Shown here in pieces: positions 6,494 to 44,487 of a stretch of 64,000 nt of DNA. Numbering within the stretch: position 1 is the stretch's first letter; each line of letters starts with the position of its first letter. The DNA comes from an uncultured Syntrophobacter sp. (GTDB lineage: Bacteria; Desulfobacterota; Binatia; UBA9968): positions 6,065 through 70,064 of the forward strand of contig CAYZJE010000017.1 of assembly GCA_964478485.1 (NCBI GenBank), read 5' to 3'. The notes beneath the pieces are model-generated. The model ran no database searches and was not told the origin of the DNA. It worked only from the letters and a program-made list of their open reading frames with translations. The translations under genes were made by a program, and so were the position numbers.

Positions 6494-6496
6494 TTT

Positions 6497-7333: not shown

Positions 7334-7419
7334 CCGTAGATCTAAGAAACACACAAAAAAGTTGATCGACGTTCCCGACAAACCGCCGGACCTAGTTGGC
7401 GCGATCCGGAATCCGCAAG

Positions 7420-8457: not shown

Positions 8458-8569
8458 GCTGGGTTCTCCTCATTGAGAAAAAATTGTTCGGCCCTTACAG
8501 GAGCCGTGCTGCCTGTGAGTCCGTGCGCTACGTTGACTGATTTCGGAATTTCTGACCGGACGCCTAGAA

Positions 8570-9535: not shown

Positions 9536-9793
9536 ACACACTCCCGTTGTTTTTTTGCTCGCATTGTCCCTTGTATCCGCGCTTGCCCGCCGGGTCAAGC
9601 AATCGCGTGTTCGGTACATGTTTCTGGTTTTTTGTTAACTGAAAAATAGAAACTGAATATTCACGAATCAGTTTGACCGCGGTTGGGCTAAGCGATAAAG
9701 AGACATTGTAAACTATTCACGCCGATATCATTGGCAGTCATAGTCGCTCGATCGGAAATGAACCGAAGTAATTGGCAACCCAGGGGGGGCTCC

Positions 9794-11838: not shown

Positions 11839-12032
11839 AAAGTGAACGAGCTTCGGCTGGACGACAAGCGAGGATTTCTAAACTCGCAAAAAAATCACCA
11901 CGGAGGCGCGGAGCGCACCGAGGGAAAAGTGTCTTGTCAGGAAATATTTGGAACTCTGAGTCTCTGTGGTGAAAGGTCTTTTTTAACTTCTGCTGCGGCG
12001 TTGCCGCGCCAGGTGCTTCGTCGCGAAAGTCT

Positions 12033-13016
12033 TCATTTTCCTTTACTCCTCTCACTCAGAAGTGACTGCAAAAAACCGAAATTAAAGACTCGCTGCGACG
12101 GGACGTCTTTATCAACTTTCACTTCCTTCTTGTGAAAGTTGATGATCCGCTCTTGGGCGGCCGGCGTCAACGTGCCGTCCTCGGTAAATGCTTTCACGGA
12201 TGCGCGATAAACGCTGAGAGCGTCGTCCTCCGGCACTTTGCTGAACCGGGCGAACATTTTTACCGCCTCTTTCTCATTTCTTTTGAACCACTGAAAGGTT
12301 TGCAGCGTGCCGGCTAAAAACCGCCGAACGAAATCCGGCCGCTCCGCCAGCATCTTCTCCGTAACGGCGACACCGCCGCTCGAATATTCGAAATGGTCTC
12401 CGTAAAAGGCCAACTCGTTGAAGCCCATCTTATTGGCGCGGGTTCGCTCCGGCGCGTTGACCACCGTCGCGGCGACTCCCCCGCTGCCTAAGGCGGCCAG
12501 CCGCCCTTCCAACGGTATGACGTGAATCTTCACATCGCGCTGCGGGTCGATGCCGTTTTTATTGAGGAGCTCACGGGTCATGTGGCCGCTTGCGCCGCCA
12601 ATAGTTTGAATCGCGACGGTTTTTCCCTTGACGTCTTGAAGAGTCTTTATTTCCGGTGCGCCGAAGAGCCAAAATTGCGGCTTGCTATCGAAGACCATCA
12701 CAATTTTAAGGCCGATCCCTTGCATTATGGCGGTCGTGCTCGCACCGAGTATCTGGCTGAAGTCGAAACTCCCGCCGATCAAGCCCTGCACTCCGACTTG
12801 GGGTTGCGCCATGATAGTCAGCGTATCGAGACCATTGTCTCTATAGAATCCCTTGTCGACCCCCGCGACAAAGATAAACGCGTTGGGGCTGCCGATTCCG
12901 GTTCGGTGCACCTTTGCGGTATCCGCAGGGACCGCGACCTGGACTGAAACGGCAGAGCCTGAAACGAGTGTAAGACAGAAGGCAAGAAATATTCTGTTTG
13001 TGCTCACTGGAAACAT
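12033..13016 (-). CDS. NMT1/SsuA-like ABC substrate-binding protein, periplasmic
   Basis: signal peptide FLAFCLTLVSGSAVSV; paralog of 9794-10792; downstream of the Rieske oxygenase gene in the same orientation. Confidence 0.7.
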   Translation of the reverse strand: MFPVSTNRIFLAFCLTLVSGSAVSVQVAVPADTAKVHRTGIGSPNAFIFVAGVDKGFYRDNGLDTLTIMAQPQVGVQGLIGGSFDFSQILGASTTAIMQGIGLKIVMVFDSKPQFWLFGAPEIKTLQDVKGKTVAIQTIGGASGHMTRELLNKNGIDPQRDVKIHVIPLEGRLAALGSGGVAATVVNAPERTRANKMGFNELAFYGDHFEYSSGGVAVTEKMLAERPDFVRRFLAGTLQTFQWFKRNEKEAVKMFARFSKVPEDDALSVYRASVKAFTEDGTLTPAAQERIINFHKKEVKVDKDVPSQRVFNFGFLQSLLSERSKGK

Positions 13017-26849: not shown

Positions 26850-27338
26850 TTGCTTTTTTCACCCTGTACGACTAAAGTTGACAACGTGGCAGTTTTCAAG
26901 CGTCCTTTCTTTACGTCATTTACCACTAGCCTTTGGGTTCGCTTTCTCCGTTTCAGCTTGCAGTCGCACAAGAAACTCGAAGATGATTTAGCGAAGGCCG
27001 GATTAACGCCGCCGCAGTTTTACGTGCTCGCGACCATCGGTTACGCCGGCGGTCTGCCGTTCGGCGAGATCGGCGCCAAAATGATGGTGACGGTAAGTAA
27101 TTTGACCGGCATCGTCGATCGGCTCGAGGAAAAAAAGCTGGCGGTGCGCCAGCGCGACGCCCACGACCGGCGGGTGGTTCACGTGGTGCTGACGGACAAG
27201 GGCACGAAGCTTTACAAAACCACGATTCCGCTCTTCGAAAAGAGCGTCGAGAAGATCTTCCTCGGCCTCGGTAAACCTGACCAGAAGGAGCTAGCGGCGA
27301 TCTTCCGTAAGCTCAATCAAGATTCCACCGTTAACTAG
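26850..27338 (+). CDS. MarR family transcriptional regulator
   Basis: winged-HTH block LTPPQFYVLATI...VSNLTGIVDRLEEKKLAVRQRDAHDRRVVHVVLTDKG. Confidence 0.75.
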   Translation: MLFSPCTTKVDNVAVFKRPFFTSFTTSLWVRFLRFSLQSHKKLEDDLAKAGLTPPQFYVLATIGYAGGLPFGEIGAKMMVTVSNLTGIVDRLEEKKLAVRQRDAHDRRVVHVVLTDKGTKLYKTTIPLFEKSVEKIFLGLGKPDQKELAAIFRKLNQDSTVN

Positions 27339-27397
27339 CCCGGTCGCGCCGCGGCGCGGGCATGGCAGATTCCAAATTACAGATTTCAGATTACCAA

Positions 27398-27422
27398 CTG
27401 CGGCAGCGGCCGCAGTTTTTCC
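27398..27422 (+). terminator. rho-independent terminator after the MarR gene
   Basis: CTGCGGCAGCGGCCGCAG hairpin followed by TTTTT. Confidence 0.55.
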
Positions 27423-27524
27423 CGCTGTTTCGCAATGCGTCTCGGGCAGCGCTGATTGACAGCGGATATTGGCGGGTTATAAATGGTTAACGTTTCAACC
27501 TTTCTCGACGGGTAAAAGTTTTAC

Positions 27525-28748
27525 GTGAACGACGATAGCAAAAAACCCATCGGGCTCGAAAGAGTCAAACCGTGGCTTTACGCCAAGGGGCTCGACCAGC
27601 GGAGCAGCGGATGCGTGCTGTGCGGTTCGTGCTACGGCCATGGGCCGGCCAATCCGATGGAAGACCTGCCTGGGCCGAAAGAAAAGTGTCCGCCCTACGA
27701 ATTCTACAAATTCCAACGCCACACGCCGAAGTCGCGTTGGCTGATGGCGCAGCGGGTTTTTCACGGCCTCGATCCGATCACGCCGGAACTAAAAGAAGTC
27801 ATCTACGCCTGCACCAACTGTCTCATGTGCCAGGAACTTTGCGGCGTGCGCGGCGACGGCTACGGTCCCTGGGATATCACGGTGGCCATGCGCGAGGAAA
27901 TCACCGAGAAAGACGGTCCGCTTCCAGCGCATCGACCGATCTACGACGGACTCAAGCAGCATGACAATCCTTGGTCGCAGCCAAAGGATGAGCGCGGCGC
28001 GTGGGCCAGCGGGTTGGCATTAAAGAAACTAGGTGAGTCGAAATCTTCGACACTGCTGTTCGCCGGCTGCTCGGCGGACCGCGACAGCGGCCGCAGCGGC
28101 GCGGTCGCCCTGGCACAGTTGATGAAACGAGCCGGCGACGATTTCGTGATTTTAGGCGACGCGGAAAAATGCTGTGGACTCTATGCTTTCGATCTCGGCT
28201 TTCGCCGCGAATTCGAGCGGCTGAAAGAGGACAATCTGGCGACGCTCGAGAATGCCGGAATTACCCGTGTCGTCGTTGCTTGCGGCAGCTGCCAGAGAAT
28301 CTGGCGCGAATATAAGAAAGAAGCCGGCGCTGATTTTCAAGTTATTCATGGCGTCGAATATGTCGAGCAGATGGTGCGGTCGGGGCAATTAAGATTTCCC
28401 AAGCCGATCGGCAAAAAAGTCACGTACCATGACTCCTGTCATCTCGGCCGTGGCTGCGGCGTTTACACGGCGCCGCGAACTATTTTGGGCGCGATACCCG
28501 GTGTCGAGCTGGTCGAGATGGCACGCAATCAGCGCTGGGCTTGGTGTTGCGGCGGCGGCGGTGGGGTGCCGGAAGCCGACCCGGAGTTGGCCGAGTGGAA
28601 TGCAGCGGATCGCATGCGCGAAGCCGAGGAGACCGGCGCGGAACTGATGCTTACTTCGAGCGCGCTCTGCCAGCGGTCGTTCGCCGATTTGAAAGTAGCC
28701 GCACTGCCAGTGCAAGATTTGCTCGAATTCGCGCTTCAGGCTATTTAG
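27525..28748 (+). CDS. (Fe-S)-binding protein with 2x[4Fe-4S] ferredoxin motifs and two CCG domains (HdrD/GlcF/GlpC-like)
   Basis: CVLCGSCY and CTNCLMCQELCGV cluster motifs; CCG motifs KCCGLYAF and WCCGGGGG. Confidence 0.8.
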   Translation: MNDDSKKPIGLERVKPWLYAKGLDQRSSGCVLCGSCYGHGPANPMEDLPGPKEKCPPYEFYKFQRHTPKSRWLMAQRVFHGLDPITPELKEVIYACTNCLMCQELCGVRGDGYGPWDITVAMREEITEKDGPLPAHRPIYDGLKQHDNPWSQPKDERGAWASGLALKKLGESKSSTLLFAGCSADRDSGRSGAVALAQLMKRAGDDFVILGDAEKCCGLYAFDLGFRREFERLKEDNLATLENAGITRVVVACGSCQRIWREYKKEAGADFQVIHGVEYVEQMVRSGQLRFPKPIGKKVTYHDSCHLGRGCGVYTAPRTILGAIPGVELVEMARNQRWAWCCGGGGGVPEADPELAEWNAADRMREAEETGAELMLTSSALCQRSFADLKVAALPVQDLLEFALQAI

Positions 28749-28750
28749 TC

Positions 28751-29485
28751 ATGGTCAAAGAACCGCATTTTACACCGCAGCGAATGCTCAACATGCTTGG
28801 GCTCAAGCCGGATTCGCTCGGCCCCTACGCGCTCGTACCGGGTCCGAAGGAACGCAGCGAATTGCTGCTCAAACTTTTGGATAGTCCGCAAAAGAGTTTC
28901 ACCTTTCTCGACTACGAGATGCATACCGGCGCGCTTGATGGAAAGCGGGTTAGCATCGGCAACGGCGGACGTTACGCGCCGGACACGGCGATCACGACGG
29001 AGATTCTCTGCGGTGCCGGGGCCGAGACATTGATTCGGGTCGGCAGCTGCGGCTCGCTGCAGGACGACATCAAAATCGGCGATCTGGTCATCGTCACCGG
29101 GGCGCTTCGCGGCGACGGCACATCGCGTTACTACGTGGCGGAAAATTTCTCGACCGTCGCCCATGGCGATATCGTCAACGCGCTTAAGCACGCGGCCGAC
29201 GAACTCAACGTGCGCTACCATTTGGGCTGGATTTTTACCACCGACGCGTTGTTTCAAGAAACCCCCGAGCTGATTCAACAACTCAACCAACAACATGTTT
29301 CCAGCATCGACATGGTGACTTCGACCTTTCTGACCATTGCTCAAGTGCGCGGCAAAAAAGCCGGCGCGGTGTTGGCGGTTTCGGATGAATGCTTGCACGG
29401 CAAGTTTGGCTTTCGCGATCCGGCGTTCTTCGAAGCCGAGCAAAAAACCATCGAAGTGGCGCGCCAAGCGCTAAAATATCTCTGA
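28751..29485 (+). CDS. PNP/UDP-family nucleoside phosphorylase (DeoD/MTA-phosphorylase-like)
   Basis: family blocks (ETLIRVGSCGSL; IVTGALRGDGTSRYY); ATG 3 nt after the upstream stop; first gene of the mtnA-aldolase cluster. Confidence 0.7.
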   Translation: MVKEPHFTPQRMLNMLGLKPDSLGPYALVPGPKERSELLLKLLDSPQKSFTFLDYEMHTGALDGKRVSIGNGGRYAPDTAITTEILCGAGAETLIRVGSCGSLQDDIKIGDLVIVTGALRGDGTSRYYVAENFSTVAHGDIVNALKHAADELNVRYHLGWIFTTDALFQETPELIQQLNQQHVSSIDMVTSTFLTIAQVRGKKAGAVLAVSDECLHGKFGFRDPAFFEAEQKTIEVARQALKYL

Positions 29486-29513
29486 CGGTTGCAAGTCGGT
29501 CTGTGCAAAAAAG

Positions 29514-31031
29514 ATGAGCGCTGTAGAAAGCCCGCTGTTCGAACCGGTGCACTGGCAAGGCGCGGGCTTCGAAATTCTTGACGAGATCCAAGTTCCCGAG
29601 AAGATCGAGTACATCCAGGTGACCGAAGTCGCTCAGGCGATCGAGGCCGTGCGCGAGATGAAGACCCGCGCCTACGGCCAGGTGCTCACCTTTCTCTACA
29701 GCGCCGCGCTCGTGGCGCAGCAATACCAGGGAAATGAGCCGGCGCGGCTGCGCGAACGGCTAGCGTTGCTGACGCAGCAGTTTTGCGACGTGCGGCCAAC
29801 CTTCGATTTTCGCGGGCTCGGCAGTCACGTCGAGGAGTTTTTTGAGAAGTTACCGGCTAACGGCTCGGTTGGCGAGTCCATCGCGCGCCAGGCGCGCGAG
29901 TTCGGTGCGCAAATCACGCAGGCGCGGAGGGGCCGCGCCAAACGCACCGCTGCCGTGCTGCCCAATCCGGCGCGCGTGCTGACTCATTGCAATGTCAGCG
30001 GCGAGCTGGTCGCGGTAGCGTATTATTGTAAAGAGTTGGGCAAGGAATTCTCGGTCATCGCCACGGAGACTCGCCCCTATCTGCAGGGGGCGCGCTTGAC
30101 CGCGTGGGAGCTGGCGCAAGCGGGGGTTGACGTCGCGCTGATCCCCGACTGCGCGGTGGCGCAAGTGATGGCGAAAGGCGAGGTCAATGCCGTCATCGTC
30201 GGTGCTGACCGCTCGGCGCAAAACGGCGATGTCATCAATAAGGTCGGCACCTATCCGATCGCGCGGCTGGCCAAGGAATACGGCTTGCCCTTTCACGCGC
30301 TGGTGCAGGATCCGCGCGGGCTCGAACGTGGCGGCGATGTGCCGATCGAAGAGCGACCGGCGCCAGAGCTGCTGACTTTTCGGGGCAAACCGCTGATCGC
30401 CGGAAGCTATTCAACACTCATGTCGCGTTACCCGTCTTTCGATGTGACGCCGGCAGCGTTGATTACTCATCTCATCGGCTTCGACAATCTCTACACGCCG
30501 GAAACTTTTCGGCAGAAGTATCAGGCGCAGGGAGGCGGCTTAAACGGCAAGCCCGTGGCACGCGGAAAATATCTTTTGCTCTACGGTGTGCCGCCGAAAA
30601 GCCAATACGTTTTTTTGTTAAAGACCTTAAAGGCGGTGCAGGCGGAGAGCCTGCTTGTCCCTGAGATGCGGCCGGAGCTTTGGGGCGCCCAGGTGGTCGC
30701 TCGCGACCTGCTGGCGTTGAACGCACCGGTGACGCTGATCTCCGACAACATGATGGGGACAATGTTCGCGCACGGCGAGATAAGTAAGCTATGTTTCTTC
30801 TATAACCGGGTGGCTGAGATTGGGCCGACCGGCATAGTCGGTTCGCTGCTGGCGGTGCAGCTGGCACGTTTACATGGCGTGCCGATTGAACCGTTGAGCG
30901 GTGTCGAGTGGGTTTCCGCCGCCTCTGACAATGATGTCTCGACCTTCATGGGCAAGAATATTTGTCCAGCCGGGGTTTCGATCCACTTGGTTGAACCGGA
31001 AGTGGTGCCGTGGCGGTTGTTGAAAGATTAG
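29514..31031 (+). CDS. mtnA: S-methyl-5-thioribose-1-phosphate isomerase (MtnA, eIF-2B family) fused to a degenerate second eIF-2B-like half-domain
   Basis: ETRPYLQGARLTAWELAQAGVDVALIPD...VIVGADRSAQNGDVINKVGTY...IPIEERP...FDVTPAALI aligns with B. subtilis MtnA; extra roughly 150-aa C-terminus repeats the pattern in degenerate form (ELWGAQVVARDL, TLISDNMMGTMF). Confidence 0.8.
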   Translation: MSAVESPLFEPVHWQGAGFEILDEIQVPEKIEYIQVTEVAQAIEAVREMKTRAYGQVLTFLYSAALVAQQYQGNEPARLRERLALLTQQFCDVRPTFDFRGLGSHVEEFFEKLPANGSVGESIARQAREFGAQITQARRGRAKRTAAVLPNPARVLTHCNVSGELVAVAYYCKELGKEFSVIATETRPYLQGARLTAWELAQAGVDVALIPDCAVAQVMAKGEVNAVIVGADRSAQNGDVINKVGTYPIARLAKEYGLPFHALVQDPRGLERGGDVPIEERPAPELLTFRGKPLIAGSYSTLMSRYPSFDVTPAALITHLIGFDNLYTPETFRQKYQAQGGGLNGKPVARGKYLLLYGVPPKSQYVFLLKTLKAVQAESLLVPEMRPELWGAQVVARDLLALNAPVTLISDNMMGTMFAHGEISKLCFFYNRVAEIGPTGIVGSLLAVQLARLHGVPIEPLSGVEWVSAASDNDVSTFMGKNICPAGVSIHLVEPEVVPWRLLKD

Positions 31032-31043
31032 CAAGAGCGATCC

Positions 31044-32036
31044 GTGGCCAAGCTTGAAAACGACATGATGCGCTGGGGCAAGCTACTCTTCGAGCGGCGG
31101 CTGATCAGCGGCTGGGGCGGCAACTTAAGTTGTCGTGCCGGTAAAAACACTTTCCTGATCACCGGCCAACACGCGCCACTGGCTTTTCTTACGCTGAAAG
31201 ATTTGGTACGGCTGAATTCTGACGGCAAGCCGGTGCGCAAGGAACAGCGCGCCTCAAGCGAGACGCCGATGCACATGGCGGTGTATTCAGGGACCGAGGC
31301 GCGAGCGATCGTGCACGTGCACCCGCCCATGGTGCTGGCTTTTTCTCTGACTCATGAAAGCTTCGTGCCGGTAAGTTTTGAAGAGAAATACACCATCGGC
31401 GAGGTGCCGATTATCGCGCAGGATACGCCGACTGTCACCAAGCCAGAAAAAGTCGTCGAAGCGCTGCGATATCATCCGGTGGCGATTATCAAAGGGCACG
31501 GCACGGTGGCCATCGGCAAAACTTTTCAAGAAGCGTTTTTGTTGACGGACTTGCTCGAGGAGGCGGTGCATTGCCAATTTTTCAAGGACGGAGTTGCCGC
31601 TAACCGAGAATCGGCGACTGACCCGGCGAAACAAGAGAGCGTGGCGCCCGACGGCAAGCGGTATCCACTATTTTCCAAAGAGCATATGACCGCGCTGGTC
31701 GAGAGCGCAAACGGCGATCAGGATTTTCGCAAGTTCGGCGGCGAGACCAGCTTGACGACTTCGTTGACACTGCATATGGAAGAAAATAACACGGCGTGGA
31801 CGGTGAAATTTCTTTCCGGCGAAATTGCCGAATTGAATCAGCGAAGCGACGGCGATTTTCTGATCAGCGGCAACGCCGAGTGGTGGAACGCGGTGTTCAG
31901 TAACAAGATCGACGCGTTTTTGGCGACCCAGCAGGGCAAGTTAAAACTCAAGCGTGGCGAGCTGGCAGAGCTGTCGCGCTGGTACAAACCATTTCAAAGG
32001 GCATTCGCGCTATGGCAAACCATACCGATTCAGTAG
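31044..32036 (+). CDS. class II aldolase (MtnB/Ald2/FucA-like) fused to a C-terminal SCP2-like domain
   Basis: aldolase blocks ETPMHMAVYSG, IVHVHPPMVLAFS, KGHGTVAIGKTFQEAF; C-terminal about 130 aa with the SCP2-like pattern DGDFLISGNAEWWNAVFSNKIDAFLATQQGKLKLKRGELAELSRW. Confidence 0.75.
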   Translation: MAKLENDMMRWGKLLFERRLISGWGGNLSCRAGKNTFLITGQHAPLAFLTLKDLVRLNSDGKPVRKEQRASSETPMHMAVYSGTEARAIVHVHPPMVLAFSLTHESFVPVSFEEKYTIGEVPIIAQDTPTVTKPEKVVEALRYHPVAIIKGHGTVAIGKTFQEAFLLTDLLEEAVHCQFFKDGVAANRESATDPAKQESVAPDGKRYPLFSKEHMTALVESANGDQDFRKFGGETSLTTSLTLHMEENNTAWTVKFLSGEIAELNQRSDGDFLISGNAEWWNAVFSNKIDAFLATQQGKLKLKRGELAELSRWYKPFQRAFALWQTIPIQ

Positions 32037-33541
32037 GCTTTTTCGCGGCGGAAGTGTTGGACGTAACCGCGGCGCGCCAAGCGCAAAAGACCGCGCTCAT
32101 CACGAAAGAGGAAGAGCTCAGCTTCGGCGCGCTCAACCAACGGGTGCATGCGCTCGCCGGCCACTTACAGCAAGAAGGCATTCGCCAGGGCGACCGAGTC
32201 GGCGTGCTGTTGCCGAACTCCACCGCCATTCCACTGAGCTACTTCGCGACGCAGAAGATCGGCGCCGTGACCGTTATCCTCGACGCGCGCTTAAAAGGCA
32301 AAGAGCTCGAGGGCGTATTGAAAGACGCCGATCTTAAATTGCTCGTCGTGCATAGCCAGCTATTCGCCGAGGTCGAAGAGGTATTCACGGCGATGGCCCC
32401 GGTGCCGATGTGGATCGTCGGCGCGGATGGCGCGCGCGCTTTTGAAAAACGCTTCGCGGCGCCCGCCGGCGCGTTGACGCTGGCGAAATTGAATGCTGGC
32501 GACGATGCGTTGATTCTCTACACTTCAGGAACCACCGGCGAGCCCAAGGGCGTCGTGTTGAGCTATGTCAATTTAGCGCAATATCCGATGGTGATGGGAG
32601 AAATGCGGGTCACCGACTCCTCGACCATGCGCGGTTGTATCCTGCCGATGTCACATATCGTCGGCCCGGTGGTGTGTAACGAATTGGCCGACAGGGGCTA
32701 CACCTTGGTGATCTTCGATCAGATCAATCCGGTGACGCTCCTCGAAGGCATCCAAAAATATCGCGTCAATGTTTTCGAGAGCGTGCCGATCGTCTTTCAA
32801 CTTCTCCTCGGCGTGAAAAATCTCGCCAGCTACGATACCAGCAGCATGAAGATCGCGGCGATGATGGGCACGAGTATTCCCATGCCTTTGCTGCGCGCGT
32901 TCCAAGCGGCCGAGCCCCATATCAAAGTCATTCAAGGCTATGGGCTGACCGAGACCTCGCCGATGATTACGCTGGTTGAGCCGGACCGGGCCGAAGCCAA
33001 GATGGGCAGCATCGGCCGCGCCGTGCCGCGGGTCGAAGTGAAGATCGTCGACGAAAACGATAAGGAAGTTCCGCTCGGCGAAGCCGGCGAGATCATCACC
33101 CGCGGTCCCCATGTCATGAAAGGTTACTTTCGTCGGCCCGACGCCACCGCCGAGCGGATTCGTAACGGTTGGCTCTACACAGGCGATGTTGGCAAGGTCG
33201 AAGCGGACGGCTACTACTATCATCTTGGCCGGCGTGACGACATGATCATCACCGGCGGTTTGAATGTTTATCCCGCCGAGGTGGAGAATTTGCTTTACAC
33301 TTATCCCGGCGTGCAGGAGACCATCGTATTCGCCGTGCCCGATCCAAAGCGCGGCCATTTGATCGGCGCCGCCGTGGTGCCGCGCCCCGGCAGCAGCATT
33401 GTCGAGAAAGAATTGTTGACGTTCCTGCGCGGCAATCTGGCCAATTTCAAAGTTCCCGACCGGATCGTCATCCGCGAGTCGTTACCGCACACCTCGTCGG
33501 GCAAAACGGTTCGCGATGCGGCGACGTTGCTGGCGAGTTAA
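32012..33541 (+). CDS. AMP-dependent acyl-CoA synthetase/ligase (ANL superfamily)
   Basis: AMP-binding motif LYTSGTTGEPKGVVLS, GYGLTETSP, C-terminal lysine block SSGKTVRD; 25-nt overlap with the upstream gene. Confidence 0.85.
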   Translation: MANHTDSVGFFAAEVLDVTAARQAQKTALITKEEELSFGALNQRVHALAGHLQQEGIRQGDRVGVLLPNSTAIPLSYFATQKIGAVTVILDARLKGKELEGVLKDADLKLLVVHSQLFAEVEEVFTAMAPVPMWIVGADGARAFEKRFAAPAGALTLAKLNAGDDALILYTSGTTGEPKGVVLSYVNLAQYPMVMGEMRVTDSSTMRGCILPMSHIVGPVVCNELADRGYTLVIFDQINPVTLLEGIQKYRVNVFESVPIVFQLLLGVKNLASYDTSSMKIAAMMGTSIPMPLLRAFQAAEPHIKVIQGYGLTETSPMITLVEPDRAEAKMGSIGRAVPRVEVKIVDENDKEVPLGEAGEIITRGPHVMKGYFRRPDATAERIRNGWLYTGDVGKVEADGYYYHLGRRDDMIITGGLNVYPAEVENLLYTYPGVQETIVFAVPDPKRGHLIGAAVVPRPGSSIVEKELLTFLRGNLANFKVPDRIVIRESLPHTSSGKTVRDAATLLAS

Positions 33542-33658
33542 TTTTCATCACAACGGACCCAGCGCGGCGAAGCCGCAAGCGAAAATCGGCATGTCCCGCG
33601 TCCTTTGGGTCAAGCTCTGTACGCGAGGTTCGAACATCTCTGTGACATTGGTTAATTC

Positions 33659-34390
33659 ATGACATCCTGGCCTCAACCGCCTGTCGCGCTGCCGGCGCTT
33701 GAAACAAGCGTCCATGTTTGGGCCGTGCGGCTTGACGACGCGAGTGCCGATCTTGAGCGCGGCCGTAATTTGCTTTCCCCCGATGAGCGAGACCGAGCGG
33801 CGCGCTTCATATTTGAGCGAGATCGCCGGCGCTATTTGGCCGCGCATGCCGGGCTGCACGAAATTCTTAGCCGCTATCTGGCCATCGAACCGGCGCAATT
33901 GAGCTTTGATCTTGGCACTAACGGCAAGCCCAATGTTGCCCAAGCGTTGGCGCCGGGCGGCATCGAGTTCAACCTTTCCCACTCCAACGAAGTGGCCTTG
34001 GTCGCGGTCACCCTCGGACACGAGGTCGGCGTCGACATCGAACATGTCAGGGAGAAATTTGAGTTTCAGGACGTTGCCGATCGGTTTTTTACGGCCAAAG
34101 AAGTTGCCGCAATGCGTGGCTTGCCGTCGACACTGCAACGCCAGGCGTTCTTCAGATGCTGGACCAGTAAAGAAGCCTTTCTCAAAGCCAAAGGCACGGG
34201 TCTGTCCGGTGCGCTGGATGAAGTGAAAATTTCATTAGGCAGCGACGAGCAGGTTCGCGTCGCCGCCAATGTGCCGAATTGGTGGTTGTTCGAATTGGAC
34301 CCAATCGAAGGCTACGAGGCTGCACTTGTTTTAGCTAGTGAGCGAGCGCCGATTCGCTGCTACCAATGGCGGCCCAGGTTACCGGTTTGA
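33659..34390 (+). CDS. 4'-phosphopantetheinyl transferase (Sfp/EntD type)
   Basis: FNLSHSNEVALVAV, GVDIEHV and FFRCWTSKEAFLKAKGTG motifs. Confidence 0.8.
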   Translation: MTSWPQPPVALPALETSVHVWAVRLDDASADLERGRNLLSPDERDRAARFIFERDRRRYLAAHAGLHEILSRYLAIEPAQLSFDLGTNGKPNVAQALAPGGIEFNLSHSNEVALVAVTLGHEVGVDIEHVREKFEFQDVADRFFTAKEVAAMRGLPSTLQRQAFFRCWTSKEAFLKAKGTGLSGALDEVKISLGSDEQVRVAANVPNWWLFELDPIEGYEAALVLASERAPIRCYQWRPRLPV

Positions 34391-34468
34391 TCCTCCTCAA
34401 GGGACTGCGGACTGCTTATCGCTCGCGAAAAGCTCGCACAGAATAAATCCTGACGAATCATAGTGGCA

Positions 34469-35911
34469 TCATTTCATCCGAAAACTCGGCGGGACGACTT
34501 CGTCGATTGGTTTTCCGGTCCAGTGCCATTTGGCGACGCTATCCCAGACCTGCTCGCCTTTGGCTTGGACTTTTTCCAATAGCTCGGCTTCATTTAGGCG
34601 TAAATATTTGCCGTTGTCGACAAGCGTTTCGCCGTCGACGATGACCGTGCGCACGTCGCGGCTGACGGCGGTTTCCATCAGTGATCTGATCGGATCGCGC
34701 ACGGCGCCGAAGGCGATGTCGAGGAGATTGACGATGGTGATGTCGGCTTTGGCGCCCTTTTGTAATCTGCCCAAGTCGTCGCGGCCGAGCATCCTCGCGC
34801 CGCCGAGAGTGATCGAGTTGAAAACATCGCGCGGATGGCCGGCAAGAAAGCTTTTGTCGGCGACTCTCGACGCGATCGCGGCGTAGCGCATGTCGGAGAG
34901 AATGTCTTTGGGAAAAGTGTCGGTGCCGATGCCCATGTTGATGCCGGCCTGGCGATACTTATCGAACGACTCCATTAAAATGCCGAGCTTTAGGTATTTT
35001 AACGGGCTATACGCGACCGACGCGCCGGAGTCGGCGATGATTTTCAAATCGTCGCCGTAAGGATAGGCGAGCCAGCTATGGCCGCTGACGAAGATGCAAT
35101 GTGACAGCGACACTTCGGGATCGAGGAAGCTAAGCTTTTTTAACAGTTCAATCGGTGTGCAGCGCTCGCGCTGCATCACGGTGTGGAATTCAACCAGATT
35201 GATCGTCGCGTGAATCTGCACGCGCACTCCGGTGTCCCGCGCCGCTTTCCTGGTCTCTTTGAGCAGCGCCGGCGTGCAGGAGTCGACGTGGCCGGGATAG
35301 AGCAGCGCCGTCATGCGGCCACTGCACGCGCCGTTGAATTTCTTGGCGAAGTCGACGGCGGTTGCTAATCCCTTGCTGCCGCGCTCGTCGTTCCAGTCGT
35401 ATTCCAGCCTGCCTTCTTTGTCGTGAAAGAACGAAACGTTTTTGTAGCTCGGGCCGGCGGCGCAGCGAATGCCGACCTGATCGATCATGTCGACGTAACG
35501 CTCCGGCTCGCCGCCGGCGCCGCCGATGTCGAAGGTCGTCGTCACGCCGCTCTTGAGCACGTGAATCAACGAGTAGCGCTGGCCGATGTCAACGTCTTTG
35601 AGATGCGCCGAATGCGCGCCCGCGCGGGTCGGACCGCCGTGGGCGAGGTAGTTCGACGCGAAGAAATCGGTCTTGGTCGAGTCGTTGAGAATGTAGTCGC
35701 TAGCGTTGATGCCGGAGTGAAAGTGGGTGTCGATGAAACCGGGCGATACCAAGCAGCCTTTGGCGTCGACCTTTTTATCAACCGGGTGGGGGTATTCTTT
35801 GCCGACGAACTCGACGCGATTGCCGTCGTAGACGACTACCCCATCTTTGATCACTTCATGTTCTCGGCCGTCGAAACCAACGACCCAGCCGCCTTGGATA
35901 AGAGTTTTCAT
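34469..35911 (-). CDS. amidohydrolase-1 family metal-dependent hydrolase (TRZ/ATZ/MtaD/SsnA-like)
   Basis: N-terminal GFIDTHFH metal-binding motif, conserved His/Asp pattern, 480 aa. Confidence 0.75.
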   Translation of the reverse strand: MKTLIQGGWVVGFDGREHEVIKDGVVVYDGNRVEFVGKEYPHPVDKKVDAKGCLVSPGFIDTHFHSGINASDYILNDSTKTDFFASNYLAHGGPTRAGAHSAHLKDVDIGQRYSLIHVLKSGVTTTFDIGGAGGEPERYVDMIDQVGIRCAAGPSYKNVSFFHDKEGRLEYDWNDERGSKGLATAVDFAKKFNGACSGRMTALLYPGHVDSCTPALLKETRKAARDTGVRVQIHATINLVEFHTVMQRERCTPIELLKKLSFLDPEVSLSHCIFVSGHSWLAYPYGDDLKIIADSGASVAYSPLKYLKLGILMESFDKYRQAGINMGIGTDTFPKDILSDMRYAAIASRVADKSFLAGHPRDVFNSITLGGARMLGRDDLGRLQKGAKADITIVNLLDIAFGAVRDPIRSLMETAVSRDVRTVIVDGETLVDNGKYLRLNEAELLEKVQAKGEQVWDSVAKWHWTGKPIDEVVPPSFRMK

Positions 35912-36223: not shown

Positions 36224-37297
36224 TCATCGTCCCCACAACTCGCGCTGAAAACCGCTTTTCTCTAAATTGTTGACGAAGCTGTTGTCGTAGAGATCTTCCG
36301 CGCGGCGCTTGACCGGCACGCCCTGGGAACGCAACAGCTCGATCGAGTCATGAACCGTTTGGCCCGGCACGATCATGCGCCGGTCGACGATGTCTTTGGT
36401 ATAGACGTTGTACGAGACTTGCAGCGCTTCTTCGTCCTTGGTGCGCATGACTTTGGCGATCGCCGCCTTAGTCTTGACGGGATTCTTGTCGACGTAGTGG
36501 ATCGCCTCGGCGAATGCCGCGACCATGCGCTGAACCATCTCTGAACGCTCGCGCACCGCCCGCGAGCTGGCGTGCAGCGAACTGTAAATGAAAGGAATAT
36601 CCAGGTCGATCAAACGATAGGTCACGTTGTATCCGTCATTCTTGGCGCGCACATCGATCGGCGGCGTGATGACGACTCCTTGAACGACGTTCATCGCCAT
36701 CGCCTGGTAGCGCTCGTTTTGGCTGCCGCCGATGGGCCGCAGGGTTACGTCGGGTACGTTGAACTTTTTGATCAGCGCGCGCGATAACCGGTCGCTTAAA
36801 TCTCCCGCTCGCGCCACCCCCAGTGCTTTACCTTTCAAATCCTCGATGCGGCGAATCTCTTTGCGGGTGATCAACACATAAGGCAGCTTGACCAGCGGCG
36901 CCGCAACCAGCTTGGCGTCGACACCGCCGGCCAGTGACGGTAGCGTCGCATCCGCGGCGCAATAGAGGAATTGAATCTCATCCGCCAACAGCGCGGTTAA
37001 GGCCGGTCGGCTACCGCGGATAAACACATGCTCCATCCTGAAGCCGTATTTATCGAAAAGATTATTCTCCAGCGCCGTGTAAAGATGCGCGAAGCCGCCT
37101 GAGACCGCGCAGGTGGCTATGCGAATGTTGATTGGCCGCTCGCCCGGGCGTGCCAGATATGGATTTGGCTGCGCTCGAACGAAAGCGTCTCCATAGGCGA
37201 TGAAAGCGAGTACTAACAAAATCGGCTTTGCCAGCGCGCGTCGGCCGATGGTCTGCCAGAATCGGACGGAGGATTGATGCGACCAACCCATCACCAT
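36224..37297 (-). CDS. NMT1/SsuA-like ABC substrate-binding protein with N-terminal membrane anchor/signal
   Basis: hydrophobic N-terminus AKPILLVLAFIAYG; family resemblance to the other NMT1-like SBPs in the window. Confidence 0.65.
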   Translation of the reverse strand: MVMGWSHQSSVRFWQTIGRRALAKPILLVLAFIAYGDAFVRAQPNPYLARPGERPINIRIATCAVSGGFAHLYTALENNLFDKYGFRMEHVFIRGSRPALTALLADEIQFLYCAADATLPSLAGGVDAKLVAAPLVKLPYVLITRKEIRRIEDLKGKALGVARAGDLSDRLSRALIKKFNVPDVTLRPIGGSQNERYQAMAMNVVQGVVITPPIDVRAKNDGYNVTYRLIDLDIPFIYSSLHASSRAVRERSEMVQRMVAAFAEAIHYVDKNPVKTKAAIAKVMRTKDEEALQVSYNVYTKDIVDRRMIVPGQTVHDSIELLRSQGVPVKRRAEDLYDNSFVNNLEKSGFQRELWGR

Positions 37298-43491: not shown

Positions 43492-44487
43492 CTAAATCTT
43501 GAACTCTTCAAGCGTGCTCTTGGCGAACAGCGAACCGACGTCGAGCTTCTTGCTGATCAACCCTTGCTCGTGAGTGTACTGCACCAGGGTCTCCAAGATA
43601 TGTCGGTTTGCTTCCAATCCGTAAGCCCAGGGATCGGGGCCGAGCAGCTCGCGCTCCTTTTCCATTTCGTCGATGGACCATGCCAGCATGTATTTGAGCG
43701 CGGAGAATTCGTACATCGCTTCTTGGCAAAGCCGCTTCGATTCGTCAAAGGCCTTGAACAGGCTCTGGGCGATCCACGGATGTTGCTCGTAAACCTCTTC
43801 GCGGATGACTATCGTGTGCATGATCGGAAAAATCTGCGTGCGCTTGAAATAGTCCGCTTCCACTGCGCGAAAGTTGGGGATCAAACGCTCGACCTTGGGA
43901 TGGCGGCGCACGAACGGCGACGGTATGTGCGCCGAGATCATGGCGTCGATCTCGCCGCGCTCGAGCATGCCGGAGAGTGTCTTGTCACTAGGGATTGCCT
44001 GGATATCGATGTTGGGGGGCAATTTGTGCTGGACTTTGTCTTGGCGGCCGGGATGCTCCTCGCCGCCGGTGAACCATTTCATTTTTTCCGGGAGCACGCC
44101 GTACTCATGCTGCAAGATGCCGCGCGCCCAAGTCGCCATGGTGATTTGATATTCGGGCACGCCGACGCGCTTGCCCGCCATGTCCGCCGGTTTCTTAATG
44201 CCGGAGTCGGTGTTGATGTAAATACACGAGTGGCGAAAAGTCTTCGACGGAAAAACCGGGATGCCGATCAGCCGCGGCGCGCCTTTGTCGCGCGACATCA
44301 AGAACGAGCCGGTCGACATTTCCGCCACGTCAAACTCGCCGTAACGCAGCATGCGCCAAAAAGTTTCTTCGACCCGCAGTGGCAAATAAGTCAGATCGAC
44401 GCCTTCGACTTCGACGCGGCCCTCTTGTAAGGCACGCGTCCGGTCGTAGTCCCAACAAGCCAGTGTCAAGCGAATTTTGCCCATCAA
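43492..44487 (-). CDS. PhtD/Pht5-like protein (4,5-dihydroxyphthalate decarboxylase family), paralog of 5181-6140
   Basis: N-terminal LTLACWDYDRTRAL motif and collinear similarity to 5181-6140 (GIPVFP, RHSCI, KRVGV, ILQHE, WF-GE, YFKRT-IFPI-H). Confidence 0.55.
   Translation of the reverse strand: MMGKIRLTLACWDYDRTRALQEGRVEVEGVDLTYLPLRVEETFWRMLRYGEFDVAEMSTGSFLMSRDKGAPRLIGIPVFPSKTFRHSCIYINTDSGIKKPADMAGKRVGVPEYQITMATWARGILQHEYGVLPEKMKWFTGGEEHPGRQDKVQHKLPPNIDIQAIPSDKTLSGMLERGEIDAMISAHIPSPFVRRHPKVERLIPNFRAVEADYFKRTQIFPIMHTIVIREEVYEQHPWIAQSLFKAFDESKRLCQEAMYEFSALKYMLAWSIDEMEKERELLGPDPWAYGLEANRHILETLVQYTHEQGLISKKLDVGSLFAKSTLEEFKI

What the first reader, a model, noticed from the sequence alone, without database searches (positions are those of the whole stretch)
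31044..32036. Class II aldolase fused to an SCP2-like domain
The N-terminal about 190 aa has the class II aldolase/adducin zinc-binding blocks (HMAVYSG, HVHPP, KGHG). The C-terminal about 130 aa (FGGETSL...DGDFLISGNAEWWNAVFSNKIDAFLATQQGKLKLKRGELAELSRW) follows the SCP2 pattern. SCP2 domains bind lipids and other hydrophobic ligands, so fusion to a sugar-phosphate aldolase is unexpected. It may serve to sequester a volatile or reactive aldehyde product such as 2-(methylthio)acetaldehyde.
Basis: inference. Interest (0 to 1): 0.6.

Follow-up and report, generated by a model that had tools for sequence, protein, structure and literature searches.

The report
Sugar-phosphate aldolase with built-in SCP2 domain
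This gene really does encode a zinc aldolase joined to a lipid-carrier-type (SCP2) domain; the fusion is conserved in at least three bacterial lineages, always sits next to the enzymes that break down 5'-deoxy-nucleoside by-products of S-adenosylmethionine, and has never been studied, so what the extra domain does is still open.

Summary
ORF 31044-32036 (+) encodes a 330-aa protein with three parts: a class II aldolase domain (residues 1-185) with all metal and phosphate ligands intact, a variable linker (186-205), and a C-terminal SCP2-fold domain (206-330). On this protein alone the Pfam SCP2 score falls just below threshold. The family profile and the predicted structure both match solved SCP2 proteins.

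The fusion is not a frameshift. More than 1000 full-length homologs exist in Binatia, Omnitrophota and a Syntrophaceae-labelled lineage. Across phyla the SCP2 domain is as conserved as the catalytic domain.

In every lineage the gene directly follows an MtnA-type ribose-1-phosphate isomerase, and in all arrangements but one it also lies near a purine/MTA-type nucleoside phosphorylase. This is the gene trio of the DHAP shunt, which salvages 5'-deoxyadenosine and methylthioadenosine.

Recurrent neighbours are a fatty-acyl-type CoA ligase and, in Omnitrophota, an aldehyde dehydrogenase, a B12 radical-SAM enzyme and a FabF pair with an ACP.

Best reading: this is the aldolase step of a DHAP-shunt variant, and the SCP2 domain handles the hydrophobic aldehyde half of the substrate or product. 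Whether that half is small or a lipid tail is unresolved.

Verdict: a new variant of a known kind, uncharacterised, of moderate interest.

The parts
31044..32036 (+). Gene for the 330-aa aldolase-SCP2 fusion protein (stop codon included)
   Evidence: Single ORF. Full-length homologs in more than 1000 clusters. AF2 model with pLDDT 91.1 and pTM 0.84.
31044..31598 (+). Class II aldolase domain, residues 1-185. Glu73, His91, His93 and His152 are the metal site. G26-N27-x-S29, T40 and S71-S72 are the phosphate site.
   Evidence: Pfam PF00596 at 129 bits. N27, S29, H77, H91, H93, E113 and H152 are invariant in 101 sequences from two phyla; E73 is invariant in the 21-sequence alignment and over 90% conserved in the 101. 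Foldseek best match is T. thermophilus FucA 2fk5 (E = 6e-16, TM 0.88); DrdA 6btd gives 4e-11. Assignment of roles to residues is by homology to E. coli FucA (own knowledge).
31599..31658 (+). Variable interdomain linker, residues 186-205
   Evidence: pLDDT is below 50 for residues 188-201. Identity is 25% within Binatia and 12% across phyla. Length ranges from 16 to 38 aa.
31659..32033 (+). SCP2-fold domain, residues 206-330 (helix-helix, four strands, two helices, one strand, two helices)
   Evidence: SCP2 identity. (secondary structure, pLDDT 86-96). (38% identity across phyla; 28 of 125 columns at least 90% identical).
29514..31031 (+). MtnA-type (IF-2B family) ribose-1-phosphate isomerase, 505 aa. 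It ends 12 nt before the aldolase gene. Residues about 340-505 are a degenerate second copy of the Rossmann half.
   Evidence: NCBIfam salvage_mtnA at 224 bits and PRK05720 at 243 bits, both below cut-off. Closest solved structures are MTR-1-P isomerases 1t9k and 2yvk. It lies upstream of the aldolase in every locus whose contig reaches that far.
28751..29485 (+). Hexameric-type (PNP_UDP_1) nucleoside phosphorylase, 244 aa
   Evidence: Pfam PF01048. Closest solved structures are uridine phosphorylases, S. solfataricus MTA phosphorylase 1jds and DeoD-type PNPs. It is 45% identical to the Omnitrophota counterpart. Present in Binatia, in Omnitrophota arrangements A and C, and in the Syntrophaceae-labelled locus.
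32012..33541 (+). AMP-forming acyl-CoA ligase, 509 aa. Its start overlaps the aldolase stop by 25 nt.
   Evidence: Pfam AMP-binding plus AMP-binding_C. NCBIfam best match is long-chain-fatty-acid-CoA ligase PRK06187 at 419 bits, below cut-off. Closest solved structures are 8wev/8weu, FadD13 and FadD5. It follows the aldolase in all Binatia loci. A ligase 34% identical heads the module in Omnitrophota arrangements A and C.
27525..28748 (+). Fer4_8 plus CCG iron-sulfur protein (TfrB/HdrD/GlpC-like), 2 nt upstream of the phosphorylase. It accompanies the module in Binatia only.
   Evidence: family. (present in all Binatia loci long enough to show it). Its link to the module is inferred from spacing only.
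33659..34390 (+). Sfp/HetI-type 4'-phosphopantetheinyl transferase, 117 nt after the ligase. Association is loose.
   Evidence: Detected downstream in 21 of the 55 loci in the table (19 of the 53 genome loci plus L002; the 53rd, L055, ends inside the aldolase gene).

Best explanation
The protein is the aldol-cleavage enzyme of a phosphorylase, isomerase, aldolase route of the DHAP-shunt type. A 5'-deoxy or 5'-substituted adenosine is phosphorolysed to a 5-substituted ribose-1-phosphate. The MtnA-like enzyme isomerises this to the ribulose-1-phosphate. The zinc aldolase domain then cleaves it into dihydroxyacetone phosphate and an aldehyde, X-CH2-CHO.

The SCP2 domain is tied to the catalytic domain by a floppy linker, but it is predicted to dock on that domain in a fixed pose. 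I propose it is the binding site for the non-phosphorylated, hydrophobic half of the substrate, which is the aldehyde product. It would hold this half and pass it on to oxidation and CoA activation. In Omnitrophota an aldehyde dehydrogenase is encoded immediately downstream; in Binatia and in Omnitrophota arrangements A and C an acyl-CoA ligase is encoded in the module.

Shown: the domain architecture, intact catalytic residues, the SCP2 fold, conservation, and gene context.
Inferred: the substrate class, from context. I rate the aldolase assignment at about 0.8.
Inferred: the role of the SCP2 domain. I rate 'handles the aldehyde half' at about 0.55 to 0.6.

Within this reading, two versions are about equally likely: X is small (H or CH3S, from 5'-deoxyadenosine or MTA), or X is a long hydrophobic group.
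For: - Metal and phosphate ligands are conserved across two phyla: H91, H93, H152, N27 and S29 invariant and E73 over 90% in 101 sequences. The fold matches FucA and DrdA.
- The gene directly follows an MtnA-type isomerase in Binatia (55 loci), in all eight Omnitrophota loci and in a Syntrophaceae-labelled MAG. A PNP-family phosphorylase is present in all but one arrangement.
- This trio is the experimentally defined 5-deoxyribose / DHAP-shunt cluster (PMC6079011; PMC10986504 abstract).
- Module genes are orthologous across phyla: PNP 45%, isomerase 43%, fusion protein about 35-38%.
- An aldehyde dehydrogenase is the very next gene in all eight Omnitrophota loci, with starts ranging from a 53-nt overlap to a 72-nt gap. 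Acyl-CoA ligases are recruited in two phyla.
- The SCP2 fold and family are confirmed.
- The SCP2 domain is as constrained as the catalytic domain: 38% versus 35% identity across phyla, against 12% for the linker.
- A pTM of 0.84 despite a disordered linker implies a defined interdomain pose.
- The exhaustive search found this SCP2 subtype almost only in this fusion: 72 representatives among 1.84 billion, with the full-length ones all 318-342 aa and the domain at about residues 205-335.
Against: - No enzyme activity or ligand has been measured.
- No NCBIfam equivalog model passes for the aldolase; the best, PRK08660, scores 137 bits against a cut-off of 203. Identity to characterised DrdA is only about 22%.
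- Canonical DHAP-shunt aldolases work without any SCP2 domain.
- Acetaldehyde and methylthioacetaldehyde are far smaller than typical SCP2 ligands.
A tunnel from the zinc site to the SCP2 cavity has therefore not been shown.
- One Omnitrophota arrangement (B) lacks an adjacent phosphorylase and ligase.
- Binatia loci have no aldehyde dehydrogenase within 8 kb.
Confidence: 0.55

Rival explanations
1. Lipid-tail version. The true substrate is an adenosylated hydrophobic molecule made by radical-SAM addition of the 5'-deoxyadenosyl radical to an olefin, as in adenosylhopane (HpnH/HpnG) or aminofutalosine (MqnE/MqnB). Phosphorolysis, isomerisation and aldol cleavage trim the ribose to DHAP and leave lipid-CH2-CHO. 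This is oxidised and CoA-activated. The SCP2 domain holds the tail.
For: - SCP2 domains fused to enzymes normally serve long hydrophobic ligands; the fold matches include SdsA1/Pisa1 alkylsulfatases and UbiJ.
- Three lineages each have different lipid-type neighbours. Binatia have a FadD13/long-chain-type ligase and a PPTase. Omnitrophota have a FabF pair, an ACP and SRPBCC proteins, in clusters of the kind antiSMASH calls 'ladderane'. The Syntrophaceae-labelled MAG has an LpxL-like acyltransferase 2 nt upstream of the phosphorylase.
- A B12 radical-SAM gene adjoins the module in all eight Omnitrophota loci.
- There is precedent for adenosylation followed by removal of the base by a PNP-family enzyme (PMC13459092).
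Against: - No radical-SAM gene lies within 8 kb in any Binatia locus or in the Syntrophaceae-labelled locus.
- The Omnitrophota radical-SAM enzyme is B12-type (best matches BchE and HpnJ, both below cut-off), unlike the known adenosylating enzymes HpnH and MqnE.
- The phosphorylase is not an HpnG ortholog: 23 to 51 bits against a cut-off of 187.
- The minimal four-gene core sits among housekeeping genes, which fits a universal by-product as substrate.
Confidence: 0.25
2. The SCP2 domain is purely architectural. It replaces the C-terminal tail of longer class II aldolases, or it mediates oligomerisation or docking to partner proteins (the isomerase with its degenerate extra half-domain, the phosphorylase or the dehydrogenase). 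It binds no ligand.
For: - SCP2-like domains with structural roles are known, for example the Eis C-terminal domain (own knowledge).
- Many invariant aromatic residues (F210, F256, W281, F285, F292, W313, F321, W324) could form an interface or fill the cavity.
- The high pTM indicates tight docking.
- A second family-specific accessory, the degenerate IF-2B half-domain, co-occurs in most lineages.
Against: - Most conserved polar positions coincide with the general SCP2 signature (DPF.A..Q.KL.L.G), so the ancestral fold and cavity-forming elements are kept.
- The fusion persists where the extra IF-2B half-domain is absent (Omnitrophota arrangement B).
- Context points repeatedly to hydrophobic chemistry.
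Confidence: 0.15
3. The catalytic domain performs a different class II aldolase-superfamily reaction: MtnB-type dehydration of methylthioribulose-1-P, epimerisation or decarboxylation. Alternatively, it cleaves plain ribulose-1-phosphate from ordinary nucleosides to DHAP plus glycolaldehyde.
For: - The superfamily shares the same metal site, and weak NCBIfam matches include MtnB (59 bits), OtnC (72 bits) and haloarchaeal ribulose-1-P aldolase (67 bits).
- The phosphorylase scores best against the uridine phosphorylase model.
- Binatia encode a GlcF/GlpC-like CCG protein next door.
Against: - All these matches are far below their cut-offs, and the best match is to the 'aldolase' model PRK08660.
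- No enolase-phosphatase or dioxygenase genes of the methionine salvage pathway are nearby.
- An aldehyde dehydrogenase immediately downstream in Omnitrophota argues for an aldehyde product.
- The nearest unfused relatives are short archaeal and Thermus FucA-type aldolases.
Confidence: 0.08
4. The two-domain protein is an artefact: a frameshift or assembly join of two separate genes.
For: None found. One unrelated 694-aa database entry (P0181: radical SAM + partial aldolase + SCP2, on a 3.4-kb contig) looks like such a join.
Against: The same uninterrupted architecture, 314-346 aa, occurs in hundreds of independent assemblies from three lineages. The linker is in frame and variable in length.
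Confidence: 0.01

Closest known systems
DHAP-shunt / 5-deoxyribose salvage aldolases (DrdA of Bacillus thuringiensis, PDB 6btd/6btg; Ald2 of Rhodospirillum rubrum and E. coli ExPEC)
   Same: Class II metal aldolase fold (Foldseek E = 4e-11 to 6btd). Encoded next to an MtnA-type isomerase and a phosphorylase, the cluster type shown experimentally to convert 5'-deoxyadenosine or MTA derivatives to DHAP plus an aldehyde (PMC6079011).
   Different: Only about 22% identity. The aldolase core is the short type of about 185 aa, closest to T. thermophilus and archaeal FucA-like proteins. It carries a C-terminal SCP2 domain that none of the characterised enzymes has. The isomerase partner carries an extra degenerate half-domain. 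An acyl-CoA ligase and, in Omnitrophota, an aldehyde dehydrogenase are attached to the module.
Thermus thermophilus L-fuculose-1-phosphate aldolase (PDB 2fk5/2flf) and the archaeal PRK08660 / MJ1418-type short aldolases
   Same: These are the closest sequence and structure relatives of the catalytic domain (phmmer E = 9e-21, Foldseek TM 0.88). They have the same short C-terminus.
   Different: They are single-domain proteins of 180-200 aa. The Thermus plasmid paralog has unrelated neighbours.
Stand-alone bacterial and archaeal SCP2 proteins (T. thermophilus TT1886, PDB 1wfr/2cx7; A. fulgidus AF1534, PDB 3bn8/3cnu)
   Same: These are the best profile and fold matches for residues 206-330. They include the N-terminal 'LF(S/T).E' helix and the DP..A..G.L.L.G signature.
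   Different: They are free-standing proteins of 110-143 aa, not fused to an enzyme. Identity is 16-20%.
Enzymes with a C-terminal SCP2 domain: alkylsulfatases SdsA1/Pisa1, peroxisomal MFE-2, SCPx thiolase
   Same: The design is the same: a catalytic domain followed by an SCP2 domain that binds the hydrophobic part of the substrate. The SdsA1 and Pisa1 C-terminal domains are detected by both profile and fold.
   Different: The catalytic domains are unrelated (metallo-beta-lactamase, dehydrogenase/hydratase, thiolase), and their substrates are overtly lipidic. Here the expected substrate is a sugar phosphate.
HpnH/HpnG (adenosylhopane) and MqnE/MqnB (aminofutalosine)
   Same: The logic may be shared: an adenosine-derived ribose attached to a hydrophobic molecule is processed first by a PNP_UDP_1-family enzyme (PMC13459092).
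   Different: No orthology was shown (HpnG model 23-51 bits against a cut-off of 187). Those pathways contain no isomerase or aldolase steps. This is an analogy only.

Membership tests
Class II aldolase/adducin superfamily (Pfam PF00596) | Profile match above the gathering score | tested here: met
   129.2 bits against 22.2, residues 7-178.
Class II aldolase/adducin superfamily (Pfam PF00596) | Three-histidine metal site plus catalytic Glu, and the phosphate-binding G-N-x-S / T-G / S-S motifs (residue roles by homology to E. coli FucA, own knowledge) | tested here: met
   H91, H93, H152, N27 and S29 are invariant in 101 sequences; E73 is invariant in the 21-sequence alignment and over 90% conserved in the 101. 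T40 and S71 are at least 90% conserved.
Class II aldolase/adducin superfamily (Pfam PF00596) | Fold | tested here: met
   Foldseek against 2fk5: E = 6e-16, TM 0.88, rmsd 2.2 A, using a model with pLDDT 91.
SCP2 sterol-transfer family (Pfam PF02036 / SCP2 clan) | Profile match above the gathering score on this protein | tested here: inconclusive
   18.4 bits (full protein) and 20.6 bits (C-terminal part) against a gathering score of 21.3. Homologs pass: 18 of 21 match at E <= 0.01, best 3.9e-8, and precomputed PF02036 is listed on most Omnitrophota members.
SCP2 sterol-transfer family (Pfam PF02036 / SCP2 clan) | Homology to solved SCP2 proteins by family profile | tested here: met
   1wfr at 1.2e-7, 2cx7 at 1.8e-7, 3cnu at 9e-5, 1c44/1qnd/2c0l at about 1e-4.
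SCP2 sterol-transfer family (Pfam PF02036 / SCP2 clan) | Alpha/beta SCP2 fold | tested here: met
   Foldseek top hits are 1wfr and 2cx7 (E = 1e-8, TM 0.71-0.81), followed by 3bn8, UbiJ-SCP2, SdsA1 and Pisa1.
SCP2 sterol-transfer family (Pfam PF02036 / SCP2 clan) | Binding of a hydrophobic ligand in an internal cavity | not testable with these tools
DHAP-shunt / 5-deoxyribose salvage aldolase (DrdA/Ald2) | Clustered with a 5-(deoxy/methylthio)ribose-1-P isomerase and a phosphorylase or kinase | tested here: met
   The isomerase is immediately upstream in all loci whose contig reaches that far. The phosphorylase is adjacent in Binatia, in Omnitrophota arrangements A and C, and in the Syntrophaceae-labelled MAG. 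It is not adjacent in arrangement B.
DHAP-shunt / 5-deoxyribose salvage aldolase (DrdA/Ald2) | Sequence orthology to characterised DrdA/Ald2 | tested here: inconclusive
   6btd gives phmmer E = 3e-8 and about 22% identity. The protein is closer to Thermus and archaeal FucA-like proteins. No phylogeny was made.
DHAP-shunt / 5-deoxyribose salvage aldolase (DrdA/Ald2) | Cleavage of 5-deoxy- or 5-methylthio-ribulose-1-P to DHAP plus an aldehyde | not testable with these tools
   Requires an enzyme assay.
MtnB methylthioribulose-1-P dehydratase (TIGR03328) | Equivalog model above cut-off | tested here: not met
   59.3 bits against 137.
L-fuculose-phosphate aldolase FucA (TIGR01086 / NF040649) | Equivalog model above cut-off | tested here: not met
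   31.7 bits against 400, and 69.7 bits against 250.

The most novel reading that the evidence does not exclude
The module is a ribose-trimming device for adenosylated hydrophobic molecules. A radical-SAM enzyme attaches the 5'-deoxyadenosyl group to a lipid or polyketide olefin. The phosphorylase, isomerase and aldolase-SCP2 then remove adenine and DHAP. The net result is that a -CH2-CHO unit is grafted onto an unactivated carbon; this unit is oxidised and CoA-activated. The SCP2 domain carries the tail.

Applied to adenosylhopane, such a route would give C32 hopanoic acid directly. This is speculation; no hopanoid gene was seen near any locus.
Probability: 0.22. Interest if true: 0.85.

Novelty: new variant of a known kind. 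Interest (0 to 1): 0.55.

Why it matters
The DHAP shunt is the main bacterial route for disposing of 5'-deoxyadenosine and methylthioadenosine, the unavoidable by-products of S-adenosylmethionine chemistry. Its characterised aldolases are single-domain enzymes.

This variant differs in several ways. It is conserved across Binatia, Omnitrophota and at least one more lineage. Its aldolase carries a lipid-carrier domain, its isomerase carries a dead extra half-domain, and CoA-ligase and aldehyde-dehydrogenase genes are attached to the module.

Two outcomes are possible, and either gives enzymologists a defined, expressible target.
- These organisms may channel or recycle the toxic aldehyde instead of reducing or excreting it.
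- The shunt enzymes may have been recruited to process lipid-linked nucleosides, which would be a new way of adding two carbons to hydrophobic molecules.

The finding also gives a handle on the large 'ladderane-like' FabF / radical-SAM gene clusters of Omnitrophota. Their product is unknown.

Tried and rejected
- Frameshift or separate gene: rejected.
- Membership in FucA, MtnB, AraD, OtnC or ribulose-1-P aldolase equivalogs: all far below cut-off.
- Foldseek with the high-confidence full-length model returned only aldolases in the 50 rows shown.
- Stand-alone SCP2 relatives of 141-151 aa from the exhaustive search are probably contig-end fragments, since P0140 sits on a 621-nt contig. I do not claim unfused forms exist.
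- Rosetta-stone idea, that Thermus encodes the aldolase and the SCP2 protein side by side: the Thermus megaplasmid aldolase has unrelated neighbours. The chromosome could not be checked.
- HpnG orthology of the phosphorylase: not supported (23 and 51 bits against a cut-off of 187).
- Aldehyde dehydrogenase, B12 radical-SAM or ketosynthase genes near the Binatia loci: none within 8 kb.
- The promoter/terminator scan of 26900-34600 was uninformative.
- Literature: no paper in the library combines 'class II aldolase' with 'SCP2' or sterol carrier protein with a fuculose or MtnA aldolase context. The ladderane-cluster paper mentions none of the module genes.
Full report
WHAT IS THERE

The window carries one uninterrupted ORF at 31044-32036 on the + strand. 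It has a GTG start and encodes 330 aa.

Pfam gives Aldolase_II for residues 7-178 (E = 2e-37). It gives SCP2 for residues 240-303 at 18.4 bits, or 20.6 bits when the C-terminal part is scanned alone. Both are just under the gathering score of 21.3. No NCBIfam equivalog passes. The best is the short 'aldolase' model PRK08660 (137 bits against 203). FucA, MtnB, AraD, OtnC and the haloarchaeal ribulose-1-P aldolase models are all far below their cut-offs.

IS THE FUSION REAL?

Yes. A word-indexed search found 1004 related protein clusters. The best 120 are all 314-346 aa, cover 95-100% of the query and are 74-100% identical. Where they carry names, they come from MAGs labelled Binatia, 'Deltaproteobacteria' and the like.

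Fifty-three species-level genomes encode the protein at 59-83% identity. All 47 loci whose contig holds the whole gene match essentially its full length. In alignments both domains are conserved, while residues 186-205 vary in sequence and length.

IS THE C-TERMINAL DOMAIN AN SCP2 DOMAIN?

Yes, on four independent lines of evidence.
1. An exhaustive phmmer search with residues 203-330 against 1.84 billion representatives gave only 72 hits. Nearly all the full-length ones are 318-342 aa with the domain at about residues 205-335. This is the same fusion, down to 23% identity. Of 21 such diverse members, 18 match Pfam SCP2 at E <= 0.01, with a best value of 3.9e-8.
2. A second large clade, in Omnitrophota, mostly carries precomputed PF00596 + PF02036. 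JGI even names some members 'fuculose-1-phosphate aldolase/putative sterol carrier protein'.
3. A profile of the C-terminal domain family hits solved SCP2 proteins. T. thermophilus 1wfr and 2cx7 score E about 1e-7 over 117 of 125 profile positions. AF1534 (3cnu) scores 9e-5 and mammalian SCP2 about 1e-4. The SCP2-like C-terminal domain of sec-alkylsulfatase scores 1e-3.
4. In the first structure model the C-terminal domain is well predicted. Its best Foldseek matches are 1wfr and 2cx7 (E = 1e-8, TM 0.71-0.81, rmsd 2.2 A), followed by AF1534, UbiJ-SCP2, SdsA1 and Pisa1.

A second model, built from 101 sequences of both phyla, has mean pLDDT 91.1 and pTM 0.84. Only residues 188-201 are disordered. 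Its aldolase half matches T. thermophilus FucA (TM 0.88) and also DrdA, the 5-deoxyribulose-1-P aldolase. A pTM this high with a disordered linker implies that the two domains are predicted to pack in a defined way. This is an inference, because the coordinates could not be inspected.

CONSTRAINT ON THE TWO DOMAINS

Between Binatia-type and Omnitrophota-type sequences the aldolase domain is 35% identical, the SCP2 domain 38% and the linker 12%. In the SCP2 domain 28 of 125 columns are at least 90% identical, against 33 of 185 in the aldolase domain.

The metal site (H91, H93, H152, with E73 over 90% conserved) and the phosphate site (N27, S29) are invariant across the 101 sequences. The accessory domain is therefore not a decaying appendage.

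Many of its conserved positions (D290, F292, A294, Q297, K299, L302, G305) coincide with the general SCP2 signature seen in the alignment to 1wfr. The ancestral fold elements are kept.

GENE CONTEXT IN THE WINDOW AND IN BINATIA

Six co-directional genes sit with tiny gaps:
- a Fer4_8/CCG iron-sulfur protein (27525-28748);
- a PNP_UDP_1 phosphorylase (28751-29485);
- a 505-aa MtnA-type isomerase (29514-31031);
- the fusion gene (31044-32036);
- an AMP-forming acyl-CoA ligase, overlapping the fusion gene by 25 nt (32012-33541);
- an Sfp/HetI-type phosphopantetheinyl transferase (33659-34390).

Across 55 Binatia-type loci the order CCG, phosphorylase, isomerase, fusion gene, ligase is invariant wherever the contig is long enough.

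The closest solved relatives of the neighbouring genes are as follows.
- Phosphorylase: uridine phosphorylases, the hexameric S. solfataricus MTA phosphorylase, and DeoD-type PNPs.
- Isomerase: MTR-1-P isomerases. It keeps the THCN cysteine and the GADR aspartate that are catalytic in B. subtilis M1Pi (residue roles from own knowledge).
- Ligase: feruloyl/fatty-acyl-CoA synthetases, FadD13 and FadD5.

GENE CONTEXT IN OTHER LINEAGES

Eight Omnitrophota loci show three arrangements.
- Arrangement A: PadR, ligase, phosphorylase, IF-2B, small IF-2B-like protein, fusion gene, aldehyde dehydrogenase, B12 radical-SAM, small ORFs, ApbA reductase, TIGR04076 protein, two FabF-like ketosynthases, ACP, cyclase, SRPBCC protein, MFS transporter.
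- Arrangement B: the ketosynthase/ACP/cyclase block comes first, then SDR, B12 radical-SAM, Amidohydro_2, IF-2B, fusion gene, aldehyde dehydrogenase. There is no adjacent phosphorylase or ligase.
- Arrangement C: PadR, ligase, B12 radical-SAM, phosphorylase, IF-2B, IF-2B-like protein, fusion gene, aldehyde dehydrogenase, followed further on by an aldehyde:ferredoxin oxidoreductase among other genes.

A MAG labelled Syntrophaceae has only an LpxL-like acyltransferase, phosphorylase, IF-2B, IF-2B-like protein and the fusion gene. A convergent housekeeping gene follows.

Two patterns emerge. The invariant partner is the isomerase. The near-invariant core is phosphorylase + isomerase + degenerate half-isomerase + fusion gene.

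The core genes are orthologous across phyla: phosphorylase 45%, isomerase 43%, extra half-domain 26%. The ligases are 34% identical. That is no closer than the window ligase is to solved fatty-acyl-CoA synthetases, so the ligases may have been recruited independently.

No aldehyde dehydrogenase, radical-SAM or ketosynthase gene lies within 8 kb of any Binatia locus.

WHAT IT MOST LIKELY DOES

A phosphorylase (or kinase), an MtnA paralog and a class II aldolase in one cluster form the experimentally established route from 5'-deoxyadenosine or MTA to DHAP plus acetaldehyde or 2-(methylthio)acetaldehyde (PMC6079011; DHAP-shunt papers). I therefore assign the catalytic domain as the aldolase of such a route, with confidence about 0.8. 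The cleavage itself is inferred, not shown.

In Omnitrophota the aldehyde dehydrogenase is the very next gene. In two phyla an acyl-CoA ligase is part of the module. Together these suggest that the aldehyde is not discarded. It would be oxidised to X-CH2-COOH and then activated.

The SCP2 domain is a fold that binds hydrophobic ligands in a tunnel wherever it has been studied. Here it is predicted to dock on the catalytic domain. It is best explained as the site that receives the non-phosphorylated half of the substrate, which is the aldehyde. I rate this at about 0.55 to 0.6.

THE TWO VERSIONS OF THIS READING

I cannot separate the following two versions.
- Small-aldehyde version. X is H or CH3S, and the domain retains or hands over a small, reactive aldehyde. 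It is favoured by three points: the four-gene core sits among housekeeping genes in Binatia and in the Syntrophaceae-labelled MAG, no radical-SAM gene is nearby there, and these by-products are universal.
- Lipid-tail version. X is a long hydrophobic group. It is favoured by three points: no canonical shunt aldolase needs such a domain, lipid-type neighbours recur in three lineages (long-chain-type ligase and PPTase; FabF pair, ACP and SRPBCC proteins; LpxL-like acyltransferase), and a B12 radical-SAM gene adjoins the module in all eight Omnitrophota loci. The precedent is radical adenosylation followed by a PNP-family enzyme, as in HpnH/HpnG and MqnE/MqnB (PMC13459092). Against it, the Omnitrophota radical-SAM enzyme is of the B12 type (nearest BchE and HpnJ, both below cut-off), and the phosphorylase is not an HpnG ortholog.

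A purely structural role for the domain remains possible (about 0.15). Different superfamily chemistry, or plain ribulose-1-P cleavage, is less likely (about 0.08).

COMPARISON WITH WHAT IS KNOWN

- The protein works like DrdA/Ald2 by context. By sequence it belongs with the short Thermus and archaeal FucA-like aldolases.
- The SCP2 domain belongs with the bacterial and archaeal stand-alone SCP2 proteins.
- The design 'enzyme + C-terminal SCP2' is known from alkylsulfatases, MFE-2 and SCPx, but not for any sugar-phosphate aldolase.
- No paper in the searchable library mentions this fusion.
- antiSMASH-type surveys have noted 'ladderane-like' clusters in Omnitrophota without assigning a function (PMC9902471).

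VERDICT

This is a new, uncharacterised variant of a known kind of enzyme and pathway. It is widespread in two poorly studied phyla. Interest is moderate (0.55). It would be high if the lipid-tail version holds, which I put at about 0.22.

Noticed in passing
window 29514-31031 (residues about 340-505 = nt 30531-31028): The MtnA-like isomerase is 505 aa instead of about 350. Its C-terminal 165 aa are a degenerate duplicate of the IF-2B Rossmann half, aligning to residues about 184-313 of the same family. The catalytic GADR aspartate is replaced (FYNR), and the cysteine-bearing N-terminal part is absent. In Omnitrophota and in the Syntrophaceae-labelled MAG this piece is a separate 148-172-aa gene between the isomerase and the aldolase. 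In Omnitrophota arrangement B it is missing.
   Followed up: partly
window 27525-28748: A Fer4_8 + 2xCCG iron-sulfur protein (best matches TfrB, LdhH and GlpC-type, all below cut-off) ends 2 nt before the phosphorylase gene. It accompanies the module in all Binatia loci but in no other lineage. Its role is unknown.
   Followed up: partly
window 33541-33659, compared with L001-L054 (about 10520-10840 in the 17-kb loci): A conserved ORF of about 105 aa with no Pfam match follows the ligase in 36 related Binatia loci (43-82% identity to the L001 copy). It is absent from this window, where only 117 nt separate the ligase from the PPTase gene.
   Followed up: partly
L056-L063 (Omnitrophota loci): There is a large conserved cluster around the fusion gene: B12 radical-SAM (BchE/HpnJ-like), aldehyde dehydrogenase, ApbA-type reductase, tandem-TIGR04076 protein, two FabF-like ketosynthases, ACP, PF04199 cyclase, SRPBCC proteins and an MFS transporter. 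This is probably what antiSMASH labels 'ladderane' in this phylum. Its product is unknown.
   Followed up: partly
L009, L011, L018, L043, L048, L051, L055: Contigs with the Binatia-type module and synteny (60-77% identity) are deposited under MAGs labelled Verrucomicrobiia, Udaeobacter, Chloroflexota, Actinomycetes, Pyrinomonadaceae and even Heimdallarchaeota. They are most likely mis-binned Binatia contigs rather than cases of horizontal transfer.
   Followed up: no
P0181 (694 aa, 3.4-kb ENA contig): A single called protein combines Radical_SAM_N2 / B12-binding / Radical_SAM with a 5'-truncated aldolase domain and an SCP2 domain. It is probably a frameshift or assembly join of adjacent genes, but it again places the radical-SAM gene directly next to the fusion gene.
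   Followed up: no
window 28751-29485 and L057 5757-6506: The phosphorylases of this module have D-M-V-T-S where the hexameric nucleoside phosphorylases I recall have the ribose-binding E-M-E motif. The purine-type 'VSD' aspartate is kept. This was judged by eye and memory, not from an alignment, and may hint at an altered ribose or 5'-group pocket.
   Followed up: no
window 5181-13016, 36224-37297, 43492-44487: There are at least eight paralogous NMT1/THI5-like periplasmic binding-protein genes in 64 kb, interspersed with aromatic-ring enzymes (LigB dioxygenase, Rieske protein, FAA hydrolase, Amidohydro_2).
   Followed up: no
window 34469-35911 (- strand): A 480-aa Amidohydro_1 protein lies convergent to the operon. 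Its family includes MTA and 5'-deoxyadenosine deaminases, but the gene is not conserved next to the module in any other Binatia locus, so it is probably unrelated.
   Followed up: partly
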